A DNA stretch of 64,000 nucleotides from a virus (lineage: Duplodnaviria > Heunggongvirae > Uroviricota > Caudoviricetes). The DNA lies in IMG/VR virus record IMGVR_UViG_3300027851_000011. One strand, given 5' to 3'. Of the stretch, positions 42,289 to 48,497 are shown one piece after another. The notes beneath the pieces were generated by a model. The model worked only from the letters and a program-made list of their open reading frames with translations. It was not told the DNA's origin and made no database searches. Numbering within the stretch: the stretch's first letter is position 1; each line of letters starts with the position of its first letter. The position numbers and the translations under genes were made by a program.

Positions 42289-43281
42289 ATGAGCCGCATC
42301 ACTATTGTCTCGAACCATCGCGATGCCGATGTCATCACGCACGACGGCAGCTTCCACGCCGATGAAGTCATGGCGTGCGCCATGACGTTGATCAGCCTGC
42401 GCACCTTGAACGTTCACAGGACGCGTGATCCGTCGACGATCAAGGACGCCATCATCCACGGGAAGACGGTCGTCGACGTCGGCGGCGAGAACAAGCCGGA
42501 TCTCGATGTCTTCGACCACCACCAGAAGGGCGGCGCAGGATGCCGGAAGAACGGCGTTCCGTACAGCAGCTTCGGGTTGCTGTGGAAGAAGCGCGGCGTC
42601 GATACCGTCATCGCGGCGATTCCGAACACGACGACGCTCACCACGTCGCAGGCCATCGCTGTGGCAGCCGCGATCGACGAAGGACTCGTCACCACGGTCG
42701 ATGCCACTGACAACGGCGCCGTCTTCGGTTACCAGACGCTGCGGAACTCGCCCGATGTGCGCATTCCGCAGTACAGCGTGTCGCTGATGATCCACCACCT
42801 GAACCCGCCTGCGTTCGGTGTGGCGTCACCTGTCGAGTACGACGCGGCGTTCTGCGACGCCGTCGAGTTCGCAGCTGGTATCCTGCGGCGCGAGATCGAG
42901 CACACCATCGCTCGCGTCGTCAGCGAGACGCGTGTGCGAGACGCGATGCGTGAAGCCCTGGACGCCAAGGTTCTGATCCTCGATCAGTTCGAAGCTGCGA
43001 TGAGCGACATCGTGATGGAGTCGCCGTCGCTGCTCTACTGCATCTTCCCGGACCAACGCGGAACGTGGATGGTACAGCAGGTCGCGAAGACCAAGGGCAG
43101 CTTTGAAGGGCGTGCACCGCTCCCGGCTGCGTGGGCGGGGCTGCGTGACCAGCAGCTCGCTGCGATCACGGGCGTGAACGATGCGGTGTTCTGCCACAAC
43201 GGCAGGTTCATCGCCGGTGCGAAGTCGAAAGACGGTGCCATCGCGCTCGCAGCGCTGGCCGTGTCTGCATTCGAATCCTGA
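42289..43281 (+). CDS. MYG1 (UPF0160) family exonuclease
   Basis: THDGSFHADEV, DVGG, FDHHQ, SSFGLLWK and FCHNGRFIAG motifs. Confidence 0.9.
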   Translation: MSRITIVSNHRDADVITHDGSFHADEVMACAMTLISLRTLNVHRTRDPSTIKDAIIHGKTVVDVGGENKPDLDVFDHHQKGGAGCRKNGVPYSSFGLLWKKRGVDTVIAAIPNTTTLTTSQAIAVAAAIDEGLVTTVDATDNGAVFGYQTLRNSPDVRIPQYSVSLMIHHLNPPAFGVASPVEYDAAFCDAVEFAAGILRREIEHTIARVVSETRVRDAMREALDAKVLILDQFEAAMSDIVMESPSLLYCIFPDQRGTWMVQQVAKTKGSFEGRAPLPAAWAGLRDQQLAAITGVNDAVFCHNGRFIAGAKSKDGAIALAALAVSAFES

Positions 43282-45169: not shown

Positions 45170-46627
45170 ATGTCCCGATTCAACGCTGCTGCCAAGAAGG
45201 CGAAGACCCCGATCGCCGACACCATCAACAAGGCCGGTGGCAGGGCCTACAGCATCACCCCGAAGACGGAGTTGGTGAACCTGCTCACCAGTTCGATGAT
45301 GGCAGGCAAGGGCCTGGAGAGCGACACCGAGCAGATCAACCGGCTCAAGGACCTGCTCACCAAGGTCGATCCGCTGTTCGCGGCCAAGACCGCGCTCTAT
45401 GTCCGCAAGGAGCACGGCCTGCGTTCGGTCACGCACGCCATGTCGGCGCTGCTCGCCCGCCACGCCAGTGGCCAGCCGTGGGCCACCAAGTTCTACGACA
45501 AGATCGTGCACCGAGTCGATGACGCCGGTGAGATCGTCGGCGCGCTCTGGGCGCTCACCGACACGAAGAAGGGTGTCATCCCTGGCGCCATGAAGCGCGG
45601 CTTCGGCAAGGCGCTGTCCCGCTTCAGCGAGTACCAGCTCGCCAAGTACAGCGGCGGCAAGCGCGCCGTGAAGCTGATCGACCTCGTCAACCTGACGCAC
45701 CCCAAGGGCAGCGTCGGCGTCGGCAAGCTCGTGAAGGGCAAGCTGGAGAGCGCGGACACCTGGGAGTCAGCCATCTCGGCTGCCGGCCCGGATGCCGAGA
45801 AGAAGTCCGACGAGTGGAAGCGCCTGCTCATGGACGGCAAGCTGGGCATCTTCGCCCTGCTCCGCAACGTGAACAACATCGTCGAGAGCCTCGGCGACGA
45901 CAAGAAGGCAATGGCCGCACTGGTCAGCCAGCTGACCGACGAGGCAGCCGTGAAGAAGAGCCTGATCCTCCCCTTCCAGTACGCCAAGGCGATCGAGGCC
46001 GTGGAAGAGAAGGGTGGGGCGAAGGGCTTCGTGCTGGATGCGCTGCGTGATGCCCTCGAACTGTCCCTGAACAACGTTCCCGATCTCGTCGGCGACACCG
46101 TTGTGGTGCTCGACGTCAGCGGGTCGATGTCCGGTGACCCGGTGAAGATCGGCGCTCTGTTCAGCGCCGTGCTGATCAAGGCCCTGAAGGAGCGCTGCAC
46201 GTTCGTGATGTTCGCGACCGACGCAAAGATCATCAACGTGTCGACCCGGCCGGGTACGTGGGAGATCCGCAACGAGATCATGAAGAAGTGCGGCGGCGGA
46301 GGCACCAACTTCCACGCCATCTTCCAGACGCTCAAGCAGCACAAGATCAGCGCTGAACGCGTGCTGATCCTGTCCGACATGATGGGGTGGATGGGCTTCG
46401 AGACGCCGCAGTCGCACGCCTCTGATTGGGCGCGCACCTGCTGCAAGGTGAAGCCGACCATCTACAACTGGAACCTGAACGCGGCTGGCACGAGCCAGTT
46501 CACGCAGAGCCAGTACCTCGACATCGTGGCGATCTCGGGGTGGTCAGACAAGGTCTTCGATCAGATCAACAACGCCGAAGAGGACCCTGAGCTGGTCCTC
46601 CAGGCGATCGAAGCCACCGAACTGTAG
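45170..46627 (+). CDS. rsr: Ro60/Rsr RNA-binding protein (TROVE + vWA domains)
   Basis: INKAGGRAY; LFAAKTALYVRKEHGLRSV; YQLAKY; LTHPK; TWES; LLRNVNNI; MIDAS LDVSGSM; GGGTNF; ILSD. Confidence 0.92.
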   Translation: MSRFNAAAKKAKTPIADTINKAGGRAYSITPKTELVNLLTSSMMAGKGLESDTEQINRLKDLLTKVDPLFAAKTALYVRKEHGLRSVTHAMSALLARHASGQPWATKFYDKIVHRVDDAGEIVGALWALTDTKKGVIPGAMKRGFGKALSRFSEYQLAKYSGGKRAVKLIDLVNLTHPKGSVGVGKLVKGKLESADTWESAISAAGPDAEKKSDEWKRLLMDGKLGIFALLRNVNNIVESLGDDKKAMAALVSQLTDEAAVKKSLILPFQYAKAIEAVEEKGGAKGFVLDALRDALELSLNNVPDLVGDTVVVLDVSGSMSGDPVKIGALFSAVLIKALKERCTFVMFATDAKIINVSTRPGTWEIRNEIMKKCGGGGTNFHAIFQTLKQHKISAERVLILSDMMGWMGFETPQSHASDWARTCCKVKPTIYNWNLNAAGTSQFTQSQYLDIVAISGWSDKVFDQINNAEEDPELVLQAIEATEL

Positions 46628-46644
46628 TAGTGCATATTTGTTGT

Positions 46645-46671
46645 TGACAGTTTCGCTGGCGTCATACGCTC
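46645..46671 (+). promoter_or_regulatory. putative promoter TTGACA-N15-TACGCT for the ncRNA array
   Basis: Lies between the Ro60 stop and the first element; same geometry as 7418; coordinates approximate. Confidence 0.35.
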
Positions 46672-46742
46672 ACGCGCATGACGCCAGCGAACAGTTTTGT
46701 CGTGGATTGGTTGACAACTCGTTCCTGATTTTCTGAATCCTC

Positions 46743-46833
46743 GCTGTGTGGCGAGCGAAGCCGTTCCTTCTAGCCCGGTGTGGTTCGCCACTCGGGGCTG
46801 CCAAAAACAAACGGCCCGCGATTTTCCCACAGC
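46743..46833 (+). ncRNA. Y-RNA-like element 1 (free-standing)
   Basis: GCTGTG/CACAGC basal stem, bulged U, GG/CC, CGA internal loop; 23-nt motif at 46748. Confidence 0.7.
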
Positions 46834-46840
46834 TTTTCAC

Positions 46841-46918
46841 TGCGGAGTGGAGAAGTCTGGCTATCTCGCTGCCCTCATAAGGCAGAGTTCACTGGTTCAA
46901 ATCCAGTCTCCGCAACCA
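46841..46918 (+). tRNA. tRNA-Met(CAT)
   Basis: Full cloverleaf: TGCGGAG/CTCCGCA, loop CTCATAA, TTCAAAT, encoded CCA. Confidence 0.9.
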
Positions 46919-46920
46919 CA

Positions 46921-46983
46921 GGCCGTGGCGACCTCGACGGTTACTTCTCTGGCAAGTTACCCCGTCATGGAACTATCCCGGCC
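46921..46983 (+). ncRNA. Y-RNA-like element 2 (free-standing)
   Basis: GGCCG/CGGCC and GACGG/CCGTC stems; motif at 46925. Confidence 0.75.
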
Positions 46984-47020
46984 CTTTCTCCCAACCACCA
47001 ACACCTCAAAGGAGGCTCTC

Positions 47021-47221
47021 ATGGACGACAACGAGAATGCCTACAAGCCCACCAAGGAACAGCGGCTGGAGATGGCGAAGAGCCATCTGCGCGCCGCGAA
47101 GGCCGGTGGCTGTCCCCTCGATCAGATCATGATGCTGACGGAGCAGATCCGCAGCATCGAGATGGAAGCGGCTCCCGCTGCTCCCGATCTCAAGCGCCGG
47201 CTGGAGCCGGTCGCCCTCTGA
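47021..47221 (+). CDS. 66-aa hypothetical protein embedded in the ncRNA array
   Basis: AAAGGAGG RBS. Confidence 0.7.
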   Translation: MDDNENAYKPTKEQRLEMAKSHLRAAKAGGCPLDQIMMLTEQIRSIEMEAAPAAPDLKRRLEPVAL

Positions 47222-47278
47222 TCTGATGCTGACGGTGTCTTGCGACGCCGTCCCTGTATAGAGTAAGCAGGAGTTCAT

Positions 47279-47413
47279 GGACGCCGTAGCTCAGCTGGTA
47301 GAGCAATAGTCCGAAAAGCCCGACTCATTTATGCCGGCGCAAGCCGTGCCGAGAGACCCGGTTACTTCAAACCAAACTATGGGTCAAAGGTTCGAATCCT
47401 TTCGGCGTCCCCA
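47279..47413 (+). ncRNA. tRNA-scaffold/Y-RNA chimera A (element 3)
   Basis: Acceptor GACGCCG/CGGCGTC + C + CCA; D arm; T arm; 65-nt insert in place of the anticodon loop, with the motif at 47346. Confidence 0.8.
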
Positions 47414-47415
47414 AA

Positions 47416-47482
47416 GACAAGTGGCGAGCCCGTCGGTTACTTCATTGCAAACGAAACACACCGTAGGCATTTTTCCCTTGTC
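47416..47482 (+). ncRNA. Y-RNA-like element 4 (free-standing)
   Basis: GACAAG/CTTGTC, GCC/GGC and CGGT/ACCG stems; motif at 47421. Confidence 0.75.
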
Positions 47483-47496
47483 GTTCTTTTCAAACA

Positions 47497-47559
47497 GGCC
47501 GTGGCGATCGACGCAGTTACTTCTTGGAACGAAACACACTGCCCGAAACTTTCCCGGCC
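47497..47559 (+). ncRNA. Y-RNA-like element 5 (free-standing)
   Basis: GGCCG/CGGCC, TCG/CGA and GCAGT/ACTGC stems; motif at 47501. Confidence 0.75.
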
Positions 47560-47566
47560 CTTGGAT

Positions 47567-47696
47567 GGTGCAGTAGCTCAGTGGTTAGAGCACGTAAATA
47601 CCCGTCAGCAATGATCCCGCCTAACGGTGTGGCGAGCACGGCGGTTACTTCTTGTTAAGAACGTGGTCGTTGGTTCGAATCCAACCTGCACCGCCA
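47567..47696 (+). ncRNA. tRNA-scaffold/Y-RNA chimera B (element 6)
   Basis: GGTGCAG/CTGCACC + G + CCA; D and T arms; insert with the motif at 47629. Confidence 0.8.
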
Positions 47697-47732
47697 CTAC
47701 ATCTCACGCGTCAGACCAACTGACGCAGGCTT

Positions 47733-47836
47733 GGGGAGGCCGCCCAACGGCTGGGCACTCCGTCCGCATCTTTCCCGCCTTCGGGTGTGGCGAGCATGAC
47801 GGTTCCTTCCAGGTTCGAATCCTGGCCTCCCCACCA
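47733..47836 (+). ncRNA. tRNA-scaffold/Y-RNA chimera C (element 7)
   Basis: GGGGAGG/CCTCCCC + A + CCA; anticodon arm replaced by a TTCG-capped hairpin with the motif at 47787. Confidence 0.8.
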
Positions 47837-47839
47837 CGC

Positions 47840-47904
47840 GCGTCGTAGCGAGCTACTCGGTTCCTTCACTCATCGCAAGACACCGACAGCGTTTTTCTCG
47901 GCGC
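47840..47904 (+). ncRNA. Y-RNA-like element 8 (free-standing)
   Basis: GCGTCG/CGGCGC, AG/CT, GCT/AGC and TCGGT/ACCGA stems; motif at 47845. Confidence 0.7.
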
Positions 47905-47978
47905 CTTTTCCTCGACACCCATGGCCCATCGCCGTGGGTGTTTTCGTTTTTACTCACCGTACCAACCCAGGAGCCCGC

Positions 47979-48497
47979 ATGGCAACGGCCATCACCCCGA
48001 CCAACAAGAAGCCAAGGCACCACGATCCGCTCCGCGACGTGGCCGAGAAGCGCTTCGCTGAACACAAAGCCGATGCCGCGCGCAAGGCTGTCGCTGACCG
48101 CCGTGCCAAGGCGAAGTCCAACTTCAACCACGTCCTGGAGAGCGCGAAGATCGCGCTCGATGAAAATAACGAGTTCATCCTCCCTGCCGACTACTGTTTG
48201 GTGGATGTGCTCGCAGCCGGCGTCATCGGCAAACCCGTTCGTCTGGACGAAGACCGCCTCACGGTCATGGTCAACGGCAAGCGCAGCTACACCTGTGGCC
48301 GGGTGATGTTCAGCGCCACTGGCGCGATCATCGGCGTCGAGATGAAGCACATCGTGAAGACCGGGCCGAAGGGCCGCGCGTATCAGCTGATCGCGTACGG
48401 CACCGGCGTCCAGGAAAGCCAGTGGGACAAGCTCGTCATCGACTGGCATCTGCTCAACAAGAACAACACGGCGGGGTTCCCTCGCCGCATCCTCTAA
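47979..48497 (+). CDS. hypothetical protein
   Basis: AGGAG RBS; strong codon bias. Confidence 0.7.
   Translation: MATAITPTNKKPRHHDPLRDVAEKRFAEHKADAARKAVADRRAKAKSNFNHVLESAKIALDENNEFILPADYCLVDVLAAGVIGKPVRLDEDRLTVMVNGKRSYTCGRVMFSATGAIIGVEMKHIVKTGPKGRAYQLIAYGTGVQESQWDKLVIDWHLLNKNNTAGFPRRIL

What the first reader, a model, noticed from the sequence alone, without database searches (positions are those of the whole stretch)
46941..47875. Loops of the Y-like elements resemble different anticodon loops (possible decoys)
Seen: right after TACTTC, several elements form a TTC/GAA mini-stem around a 7-nt loop with the YU-NNN-AN anticodon pattern. Examples are TT-GCA-AA (element 4, Cys-like, closed through an A-C mismatch), TT-GGA-AC (element 5, Ser-like) and TT-GTT-AA (chimera B, Asn-like, which also has the Asn G discriminator). 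Elements 2 (CTG or GGC) and 8 (CAT) are weaker cases. Known: hosts use anticodon nucleases (PrrC, RloC, PARIS AriB) against phages. Inference: the varying triplet on a constant Ro-bound scaffold could act as a decoy or sensor panel for tRNases.
Basis: inference. Interest (0 to 1): 0.72.

Follow-up and report, generated by a model that had tools for sequence, protein, structure and literature searches.

The report
Anticodon-arm mimic in Ro60-partner Y RNAs
Only one of the eight small Ro60-partner RNAs encoded here carries a true tRNA-style anticodon arm, but many related Y RNAs of phages and bacteria keep the same arm, with a conserved loop frame around three freely drifting middle letters, so a deliberate "decoy panel" is possible but unproven.

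Summary
A Ro60 (TROVE) gene at 45170-46627 is followed by eight modules sharing GUGGCGAsC-N5-GGUUMCUUC. Only chimera B (47567-47696) has a real anticodon arm. Removing its 54-nt Ro-type hairpin leaves a perfect tRNA-Asn(GUU) cloverleaf.

Elements 4 and 5 belong to a conserved family of short Y RNAs. In that family UUC/GAA clamps an apical loop of 0-18 nt, so their "Cys/Ser" loops are not an anticodon frame.

In 144 phage and 135 bacterial modules, about 75% carry a 5-bp stem and 7-nt loop in exact tRNA register. U33 is 91-93%, R37 85-95% and A38 84-89%, with 35-40 different triplets, much as in real tRNAs from the same contigs.

Between close relatives the triplet diverges as fast as spacer DNA (36% against 35%). 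The stem (4%) and positions 32/33/38 (12%) are conserved. I read this as a shape-constrained tRNA mimic with an unconstrained triplet.

A nuclease-decoy role remains untested. The feature is also found in bacterial genome assemblies, not only phage contigs. This scan noted the same feature earlier on other DNA (e1-5430646, e1-3496498).

The parts
45170..46627 (+). Ro60/Rsr (TROVE + vWA) gene, 485 aa
   Evidence: Pfam TROVE, E 4.9e-20. 2129 homologues found, the nearest at 73% identity.
46745..46800 (+). Element 1: divergent module (GUGGCGAGC-N5-CGUUCCUUC). No apical anticodon-like hairpin. Status as a Y RNA uncertain.
   Evidence: Not hit by the short-Y model R1.
46841..46918 (+). Ordinary tRNA-Met(CAU) inside the array
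   Evidence: Rfam tRNA 61.3 bits; ARAGORN.
46921..46983 (+). Element 2: short Y-like module. Apical hairpin ACUU(46943-46)/AAGU(46954-57) with 7-nt loop CUCUGGC (46947-53).
47279..47413 (+). Chimera A: CCA-ending tRNA body. Its 5-bp anticodon stem AUAGU/ACUAU is capped by the Ro-type hairpin in place of an anticodon loop.
   Evidence: Rfam tRNA 53.6 bits with a 62-nt insert. L006 has the same design with the compensatory pair AUUGU/ACAAU.
47416..47482 (+). Element 4: member of the short Y RNA family. UUC(47441-43)/GAA(47453-55) around the 9-nt loop AUUGCAAAC, followed by the family motif GAAACACAC.
   Evidence: Model R1, built only from other phages: 44.8 bits, E 1.1e-7. Fold.
47497..47559 (+). 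Element 5: member of the short Y RNA family. UUC(47521-23)/GAA(47531-33) around the 7-nt loop UUGGAAC.
   Evidence: Model R1: 22.9 bits, E 0.012. Fold. The UUGGA(U) loop motif recurs in L007, L079 and L085.
47567..47696 (+). Chimera B: complete tRNA-Asn(GUU)-like cloverleaf with G73 and CCA. A 54-nt Ro-type hairpin (47595-47648) is inserted between nt 28 and 29 of the anticodon stem.
   Evidence: Rfam tRNA 50.8 bits. With the insert removed, ARAGORN calls a 76-nt tRNA-Asn(gtt).
47649..47663 (+). Anticodon-arm part of chimera B: UUC, loop UUGUUAA (47652-58), GAACG. The only true anticodon loop in the array.
   Evidence: Its register relative to the T arm is as in tRNA.
47733..47836 (+). Chimera C: acceptor stem plus T arm plus Ro-type hairpin, ending ACCA. 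The T arm abuts GGUUCCUUC directly, with no anticodon arm.
47840..47904 (+). Element 8: short Y-like module (GUAGCGAGC-N5-GGUUCCUUC). Apical loop ACUCAUC does not fit the anticodon pattern.
47914..47942 (+). Intrinsic-terminator-like hairpin plus U-run that closes the array

Best explanation
The hairpin after the conserved UUAC(UUC) of Ro60-associated Y RNA modules is the anticodon arm of their tRNA-like domain.

In tRNA-like modules the Ro-binding helix is inserted at the D-arm/anticodon-arm junction. This applies to chimera B here and to about two thirds of T-arm-bearing modules next to phage Ro60 genes. Modules found by sequence pattern in bacterial genome assemblies look the same, but I did not check those for Ro60 proximity. 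The anticodon arm survives as a separate hairpin with exact tRNA geometry: a 5-bp stem, a 7-nt loop and a 5-nt variable loop before the T arm.

Selection keeps the stem and the loop frame (positions 32, U33, R37, A38), that is, the U-turn shape. The three "anticodon" letters are unconstrained and drift. The RNA is therefore a fuller tRNA mimic, probably read by shape and not by anticodon by whatever tRNA-binding factor the Ro60-Y RNA particle engages. That last step is inferred.

The short modules (elements 4 and 5) keep only a 3-bp UUC/GAA clamp around a loop of free length. Their resemblance to Cys and Ser anticodon loops is incidental.
For: Context and homology:
- The Ro60 gene lies directly upstream.
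- GGUUACUUC occurs 70 times on the Ro strand against 14 on the other strand in 80 phage Ro60 loci.
- Canonical homologues match Rfam YrlA at E 1e-6 to 1e-2, below the gathering score.
- 77 of 120 loci retrieved by DNA pattern alone carry Ro60 on the same strand, at a median distance of 316 nt.

Geometry:
- In the Ro-anchored set, 29 of 43 T-arm modules have tRNA spacing; the mode is the exact tRNA offset.
- Anchored on the T arm, pairing peaks only in the tRNA register: 81 of 144 modules have at least 4 bp, against 7-45 in other registers. The bacterial set behaves the same way.
- In an unselected set of 67 modules, the helix is 85% paired and its two inner pairs covary. The covariation score is 0.574, against 0.18 when shuffled and 0.055-0.133 when the partner is slid.

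Loop signature:
- Phage modules (114): U33 93%, R37 95%, A38 89%, 35 triplets.
- Bacterial modules (96): U33 91%, R37 85%, A38 84%, 40 triplets.
- 507 real tRNAs of the same loci: 94%, 97%, 74%.
- Sets not filtered for pairing give the same picture.

Substitution rates in 37 related pairs: stem 4%, positions 32/33/38 12%, positions 34-36 36%, spacer 35%.

This window:
- Chimera B without its insert is a perfect tRNA-Asn(GUU).
- Elements 4 and 5 are the only hits in the window to a model of short Y RNAs built from other phages.
- In that family the loop runs from 0 to 18 nt and is 7 nt in only 13 of 53 cases.
Against: - No expression, Ro60-binding or structure-probing data exist for these RNAs.
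- The large module sets were retrieved with a pattern that fixes the UUAC-to-T-arm distance at 20-23 nt. This pre-selects tRNA-like spacing, although the Ro-anchored set gives 67% without that filter.
- I did not check the bacterial pattern hits for a nearby Ro60 gene.
- Spacer-like divergence of the triplet cannot separate neutral drift from diversifying selection.
- Positions 36 and 37 are strongly coupled: G36 goes with G37 in 38 of 45 cases (odds ratio 93). This shows some constraint inside the "free" part, though shared ancestry may inflate it.
- Which helix stacks under the D stem in three dimensions is unknown.
Confidence: 0.55

Rival explanations
1. Decoy or sensor panel. The anticodon-like loops bait host anticodon nucleases such as PrrC, RloC or AriB. 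They either soak up the enzymes or report their activity through Ro60.
For: - The conserved loop frame with variable middle letters is what a bait library would look like.
- Common triplets include GUU, UUU/CUU and CAU. From my own knowledge, Asn, Lys and initiator-Met tRNAs are known anticodon-nuclease targets.
- Y modules sit in phage tRNA clusters.
- In some bacteria Ro60 and Y RNAs are encoded in the rtcBA RNA-repair operon, which cleaved tRNAs induce. A competitive-inhibitor role for YrlA has been suggested (PMC7790460).
- Phage tRNAs are known to counter tRNA-targeting defences (PMC10264068, PMC11555353).
Against: - In this array only one of eight elements has a true anticodon loop.
- The two "Cys/Ser" examples belong to a family with free loop length.
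- The triplet diverges no faster than spacer DNA, and no anticodon identity is maintained among close relatives.
- The triplets show no association with the tRNA anticodons of the same locus: 10 of 23 against 7.9 expected.
- The feature is equally present in bacterial genome assemblies.
- Salmonella YrlA was not cleaved by the DNA-damage-induced anticodon nuclease (PMC7790460), although that RNA lacks the loop.
Confidence: 0.12
2. Chargeable tRNA-shaped Y RNAs. The CCA-ending chimeras are aminoacylated, and chimera B keeps its anticodon loop because AsnRS needs GUU plus G73. Charging would protect the 3' end or link Ro60 to translation factors.
For: - Chimera B is a complete tRNA-Asn(GUU) with G73 and an encoded CCA.
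- Chimera A has no anticodon but carries G-1 opposite C73. From my own knowledge that is the His identity set, and it hardly depends on the anticodon (sequence).
- M. smegmatis YrlA is cut by RNase P and receives CCA (PMC4201824).
Against: - Most homologous modules have a closed acceptor hairpin and still keep the arm.
- Triplets change freely among close relatives, for example GUU, CCG, CCU and GUC in Kitasatospora. That does not fit a fixed synthetase identity.
- From general knowledge, a 54-nt side arm in the anticodon stem should hinder use on the ribosome.
Confidence: 0.15
3. Relic with no function. Chimera B is a tRNA-Asn gene recently disrupted by, or recombined with, a Y module. The other resemblances are chance.
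For: - The in-window evidence is statistically weak.
- 47% of phage triplets lie within one change of GUU, as expected for drift from one ancestor (counts).
Against: - The stem covaries, and positions 32, 33, 37 and 38 are conserved across hundreds of diverged modules in phages and several bacterial phyla. That pattern requires purifying selection on the arm.
Confidence: 0.1

Closest known systems
YrlA, the tRNA-like Y RNA of bacteria and phages (Rfam RF02553; Chen et al. 2014, PMC4201824; structure in Wang et al. 2018, bioRxiv 10.1101/312249)
   Same: - Encoded next to Ro60/Rsr.
- A 5' GNCGA-type motif is followed by a conserved YUAY, then T-arm and D-arm mimics.
- Arrays of several Y RNAs occur.
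- The hairpin studied here is what Chen et al. call the less-conserved "V" stem-loop.
   Different: - The published description treats the hairpin as a variable arm, and the solved Salmonella YrlA "lacks the anticodon loop". Here the hairpin has anticodon-arm geometry and the anticodon-loop signature.
- The window's tRNA-like modules are circularly permuted, with an open acceptor ending in CCA and a closed Ro helix.
- The window's elements do not match RF02553 even at E<=10.
Yrl1/Yrl2 of Thermus phage phiLo with phage Ro60 (PMC12135203)
   Same: Phage-encoded Ro60 with adjacent short Y-like RNAs that bind it. A particle with host PNPase has been proposed.
   Different: Those RNAs are described as stem-bulge-stem with a CGAA motif. 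No tRNA-like domain or anticodon arm is reported.
Phage tRNAs that evade or out-titrate tRNA-targeting defences (PMC10264068; PMC11555353)
   Same: Phage-encoded tRNA-shaped RNAs whose anticodon loops matter in conflicts with host nucleases.
   Different: Those are functional decoding tRNAs. The modules here carry a Ro60-type helix, mostly cannot be charged, and no link to any nuclease has been shown.

Membership tests
YrlA-type Y RNA | Encoded adjacent to a Ro60/Rsr (TROVE) gene | tested here: met
   TROVE gene at 45170-46627. The array starts about 120 nt downstream on the same strand.
YrlA-type Y RNA | 5' Ro-binding motif GNCGAAN0-1G (PMC4201824) | tested here: inconclusive
   All eight modules have GGCGA or GCCGA followed by G or C instead of A. 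Homologues read GYGA. Binding itself was not tested.
YrlA-type Y RNA | Conserved YUAY after the 5' strand | tested here: met
   UUAC or UUCC in all eight modules. GUUAC is invariant in 144 phage modules.
YrlA-type Y RNA | tRNA-like domain with T arm 5' of D arm and a closed acceptor-like hairpin | tested here: not met
   Chimeras A and B have the D arm 5' of the T arm and an open acceptor ending in CCA, which is the permuted order. Elements 2, 4, 5 and 8 have no tRNA-like domain. Most homologues do have the canonical order.
YrlA-type Y RNA | Match to Rfam RF02553 | tested here: not met
   No hit at E<=10 in 46600-48000. Canonical homologues sharing the same signature score 30-44 bits, E 1e-6 to 1e-2, below the gathering score of 69.
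tRNA anticodon arm | 5-bp stem, 7-nt loop, 4-5-nt variable loop before the T stem | tested here: met
   Chimera B. 114 of 144 phage and 96 of 135 bacterial modules. Not met by elements 4, 5 and 8, chimera A or chimera C.
tRNA anticodon arm | Y32, U33, R37 loop signature | tested here: met
   Chimera B: U32 U33 GUU A37 A38. Homologues: U33 91-93%, R37 85-95%, against 94% and 97% in 507 tRNAs of the same loci.
tRNA anticodon arm | Anticodon used in decoding or for synthetase identity | not testable with these tools
   Spacer-rate divergence of positions 34-36 among relatives argues against a maintained identity.
Anticodon-nuclease decoy or counter-defence tRNA | Bound or cleaved by a host anticodon nuclease, with a protective effect | not testable with these tools
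   No data. Pfam/PHROGs scans of about 20 selected ORFs between 37.5 and 52 kb found only MYG1 and TROVE; the PADLOC defence library was not searched.

The most novel reading that the evidence does not exclude
Ro60-associated Y RNAs of phages and bacteria are four-arm tRNA mimics. The hypervariable letters 34-37 of their anticodon-like loop sit on a conserved U-turn frame and are kept variable by an arms race. The loops would bait or titrate anticodon-loop-targeting nucleases, or other anticodon readers, and hand them or their products to the Ro60-exonuclease machinery.
Probability: 0.12. Interest if true: 0.85.

Novelty: new variant of a known kind. Interest (0 to 1): 0.5.

Why it matters
Y RNAs are described as mimics of the tRNA elbow that lack an anticodon loop. 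If many of them display a complete anticodon arm, the unknown partner of the Ro60-Y RNA particle may be a protein that reads the anticodon stem-loop. Candidates are a modification enzyme, a synthetase or an anticodon nuclease. That narrows the search for the long-missing effector.

It also supports descent of Y RNAs from whole tRNAs. Finally, it gives a concrete, testable handle (U33/R37 against the triplet) for asking whether phage Ro60 systems take part in the tRNA-centred conflicts between phages and hosts.

Tried and rejected
- my first collection-wide pattern had one N too many and returned only chance hits in a capsid gene (L001, L002).
- the corrected 23-nt pattern found only single matches, almost all inside coding sequence.
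- the closest Ro60 relatives (100% and 73% identity) lie on contigs that end 77-256 nt after the gene, so no close homologue of this array could be read.
- a single-protein locus search in viral contigs found nothing. The alignment-based search worked.
- no similar phage record in GenBank beyond tRNA-Met.
- Pfam scans of about 20 selected ORFs in 37.5-52 kb, and PHROGs scans of ten of them, found only MYG1 and TROVE. No RNA-repair or defence-related genes turned up.
- module triplets are not enriched among the tRNA anticodons of the same locus (10 of 23 against 7.9 expected).
- ARAGORN with introns allowed assigns arbitrary anticodons (Val, Arg) to chimeras A and B. I disregarded these calls.
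- 10 of 144 modules are called ordinary tRNAs by ARAGORN. I considered reading the GUAG...UUAC segment as a D arm. I rejected this because GUGG pairs with the 3' CCC strand, and the N6 helix covaries with the strand after ACAC.
- single-sequence folding gives weak z-scores and for chimera B prefers a non-cloverleaf fold. I treated it as uninformative.

Full report
CONTEXT. The window belongs to an uncultured phage; its Ro60 protein is recorded on a contig of 200,781 bp. ORF 45170-46627 (+) is a Ro60/Rsr protein (Pfam TROVE, E 4.9e-20, with a vWA-like tail). A MYG1-family exonuclease gene lies 1.9 kb upstream.

Directly downstream of Ro60, eight elements share a 23-nt block in perfect register, GUGGCGAsC-N5-sGUUMCUUC. 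The block ends at 46770, 46947, 47368, 47443, 47523, 47651, 47809 and 47867. GGCGA resembles the published Ro-contact motif GNCGAA, and UUAC is the conserved YUAY of YrlA RNAs (PMC4201824). A tRNA-Met (46841-46918), a 66-codon ORF with a strong ribosome-binding site (47023-47221) and a terminator-like hairpin (47914-47942) also lie in or at the end of the array.

THE ELEMENTS. Rfam's tRNA model matches 47280-47410 and 47567-47693, each with a 62-65-nt insertion in the anticodon arm.

Chimera B: removing 47595-47648 (54 nt, the Ro-type hairpin) leaves a flawless 76-nt cloverleaf that ARAGORN calls tRNA-Asn(GUU). It has G73 and an encoded CCA. The hairpin sits between nt 28 and 29.

Chimera A: a full 5-bp anticodon stem (AUAGU/ACUAU) is capped by the Ro-type hairpin, so it has no anticodon loop. 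L006 has the same design with a compensatory AUUGU/ACAAU.

Chimera C: an acceptor stem, a T arm and the Ro-type hairpin. Its T arm abuts GGUUCCUUC.

The short elements 2, 4, 5 and 8 fold as an outer bulged stem, an inner helix and a small apical hairpin. The apical loops are CUCUGGC (7 nt), AUUGCAAAC (9), UUGGAAC (7) and ACUCAUC (7). Fold z-scores for these short elements are only -0.4 to -1.2, so the window alone proves little.

HOMOLOGUES. The nearest Ro60 relatives sit on contigs that stop just after the gene. An alignment-based search gave 80 phage loci with Ro60 at 33-42% identity.

GGUUACUUC occurs 70 times on the Ro60 strand and 14 times on the other. It lies mostly within 600 nt upstream of Ro60 and is preceded by GUAGYGA-N6. 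Canonical members of this set match Rfam YrlA at 30-44 bits (E 1e-6 to 1e-2), below the gathering score. Most have the published order of T arm, closed acceptor-like hairpin, D arm. A few are permuted with a CCA end, like the window's chimeras.

A pattern scan (GUUACUUC-N20-23-GGUUCRANUCC) added 120 phage loci and 120 bacterial loci from Actinomycetota, Bacteroidota, Acidobacteriota, Bacillota and others. Of the 120 phage loci found by pattern alone, 77 carry Ro60 in the fetched stretch, always on the same strand, at a median distance of 316 nt. I did not run that check on the bacterial loci.

Spacing. In the Ro-anchored set, which has no spacing filter, 29 of 43 T-arm-bearing modules have tRNA-like spacing between UUC and the T arm. 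The mode is the exact tRNA value.

Register. I counted back from the T arm as in a tRNA: a 5-nt variable loop, a 5-bp stem, a 7-nt loop. Pairing peaks sharply in that register. 81 of 144 phage modules have at least 4 bp there, against 7-45 in registers shifted by 1-4 nt. The 135 bacterial modules behave the same way.

Covariation. In an unselected, ungapped set of 67 modules the helix is 85% paired. Its two inner pairs covary (GC 42/CG 11/UA 4/GU 3, and CG 26/AU 24/UA 6/GC 5). The covariation score is 0.574, against 0.18 when shuffled and 0.055-0.133 when the partner is slid.

Loop composition in the 114 phage modules with at least 4 bp:
- position 32: C 67, A 25, U 22, G 0
- U33: 93%
- R37: 95%
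- A38: 89%
- 35 different triplets, led by GCU 15, GUU 14, UGU 9, CUU 6, UUU 6 and UGG 5

In the 96 bacterial modules: U33 91%, R37 85%, A38 84%, and 40 triplets led by GUU 16 and CAU 12. Sets not filtered for pairing give U33 82-92%, R37 86-97% and A38 79-91%. The 507 distinct tRNAs that ARAGORN finds in the same phage loci give U33 94%, R37 97% and A38 74%.

The linker before the T arm reads RGGUC, which I know as a common tRNA variable-loop sequence.

So the hairpin that Chen et al. labelled a less-conserved "V" stem-loop has, in most of these RNAs, the geometry and signature of an anticodon arm. The solved Salmonella YrlA is said to lack an anticodon loop (10.1101/312249). That RNA corresponds to the chimera-A type of design.

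IS THE TRIPLET SELECTED? I compared 37 pairs of related modules from different loci (structured flanks 80-99% identical). Per-site divergence was as follows:
- stem: 4%
- positions 32/33/38: 12%
- acceptor-like hairpin region: 20%
- upstream spacer: 35%
- positions 34-36: 36%
- positions 34-37: 38.5%

Kitasatospora species with 87-94% identical flanks carry CUGUUAA, CUCCGGA, CUCCUCA and CUGUCAA. The triplet therefore changes as fast as unconstrained DNA while its frame is under purifying selection. This fits neutral drift of the exposed letters. It cannot exclude diversifying selection, but it argues against maintained mimicry of a particular tRNA.

Module triplets are not enriched among the tRNA anticodons of the same locus (10 of 23 against 7.9 expected). 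One residual constraint remains: G36 goes with G37 in 38 of 45 cases (odds ratio 93). Shared ancestry may inflate this figure.

SHORT MODULES. Across the loci, 53 non-redundant modules without a T arm share UUC-loop-GAAAACAC(U/A)C. The distance between UUC and GAA ranges from 0 to 18 nt. It is 7 nt in only 13 of the 53, and only 8 of those 13 show U at the second position and a purine at the sixth.

Their loops often contain UUGG or UUGC: UUUUGGU three times, UUGGAU in L079 and L085 (and UUUGGAU in L007), and AUUGCA. These are the same motifs as in elements 5 (UUGGAAC) and 4 (AUUGCAAAC).

The consensus fold shows strong covariation in the inner N6 helix. It also pairs the GU of RGUUAC with the AC of ACAC.

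I built a covariance model from 34 short modules of other phages. Run over the whole window on both strands without filters, it hits exactly elements 4 (44.8 bits, E 1.1e-7) and 5 (22.9 bits, E 0.012) and nothing else. The "Cys-like" and "Ser-like" loops are thus family motifs in a loop of free length, not anticodon mimics.

INTERPRETATION. Shown:
- The scaffold is a Ro60-linked Y RNA signature.
- Chimera B and most tRNA-like relatives display a bona fide anticodon-arm mimic.
- The frame of that loop is conserved and its triplet is not.

Inferred: the arm makes the RNA a fuller tRNA mimic for a partner that reads shape. This agrees with the published idea that YrlA arose from tRNA transcripts (cited in 10.1101/312249).

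The decoy idea has a precedent, since YrlA has been suggested as a possible competitive inhibitor of an anticodon nuclease (PMC7790460). It also sits in a plausible setting, because phage tRNAs are known to counter tRNA-targeting defences (PMC10264068, PMC11555353). Nothing here tests it. The array offers one loop, not a panel.

An alternative for the CCA-ending chimeras is aminoacylation: Asn identity for B, which would need the anticodon, and G-1:C73 His identity for A, which would not. The free drift of triplets in relatives speaks against a general role for synthetase identity.

PRIOR NOTES. This scan had already noted anticodon-arm mimics in phage Y RNAs on other DNA (e1-5430646, e1-3496498). 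It had also noted tRNAs carrying a Ro60-docking arm (e1-5515193, e1-5529253). I reached the same reading independently before seeing those notes. My additions are the bacterial survey, the rate comparison and the separation of the short family.

VERDICT. This is a new variant of a known kind, of moderate interest.

Noticed in passing
window 47023-47221 (+): A 66-codon ORF with a strong AAGGAGG ribosome-binding site sits inside the Y RNA array, between element 2 and chimera A. It has no Pfam or PHROG match.
   Followed up: partly
window 46640-46700: A long, near-perfect inverted repeat followed by a short U-run lies right after the Ro60 stop codon, flanked by two TTGACA words. It may be a terminator or operator separating Ro60 from the array. 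The simple terminator scan did not list it.
   Followed up: no
window 47914-47942 (+): A strong intrinsic-terminator-like hairpin (12 pairs, then UUCGUUUUU) lies just after element 8. The array may be one transcription unit that is then processed.
   Followed up: partly
L006-L448, tRNA-like modules: Loop positions 36 and 37 are coupled: U36-A37 in 109 cases and G36-G37 in 38, with few mixed cases. This is stronger than in the real tRNAs of the same loci (G36: 49 G37 against 51 A37). It could reflect requirements of modification enzymes (m1G37, t6A37) or two old clades.
   Followed up: partly
L006-L085 short modules; window 47453-47461 and 47531-47539: Short Y RNAs carry a conserved A-rich motif GAAAACAC(U/A)C opposite RGUUACUUC. 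The GU of GUUAC pairs with the AC of ACAC, leaving a conserved asymmetric internal loop. This is a candidate protein-binding site and is not described in the papers I read.
   Followed up: partly
window 47360-47385 and L006:2614-2640: Chimera A's segment UUCAAACCAAACUAUGGGUC and the CCGAAAAGCC after its D arm recur almost unchanged in a canonical-order module of L006. The anticodon-stem pair there shows a compensatory change. This looks like a distinct "capped anticodon stem" subclass.
   Followed up: partly
L209-L328: Many Y modules lie inside large phage tRNA clusters, with up to 38 tRNA genes in the fetched stretch. ARAGORN of 144 modules as ordinary tRNAs, so automatic annotation may mislabel them.
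   Followed up: partly
window 46740-47905 compared with L209-L328: Here the array lies downstream of Ro60. In other phages, 70 of 78 modules with a Ro60 hit lie upstream of it on the same strand.
   Followed up: no
window 42289-43281 (+): An intact MYG1-family exonuclease gene (Pfam E 4.5e-65) lies on the same strand 1.9 kb upstream of Ro60. The same gene order is seen on a second contig (L005).
   Followed up: no
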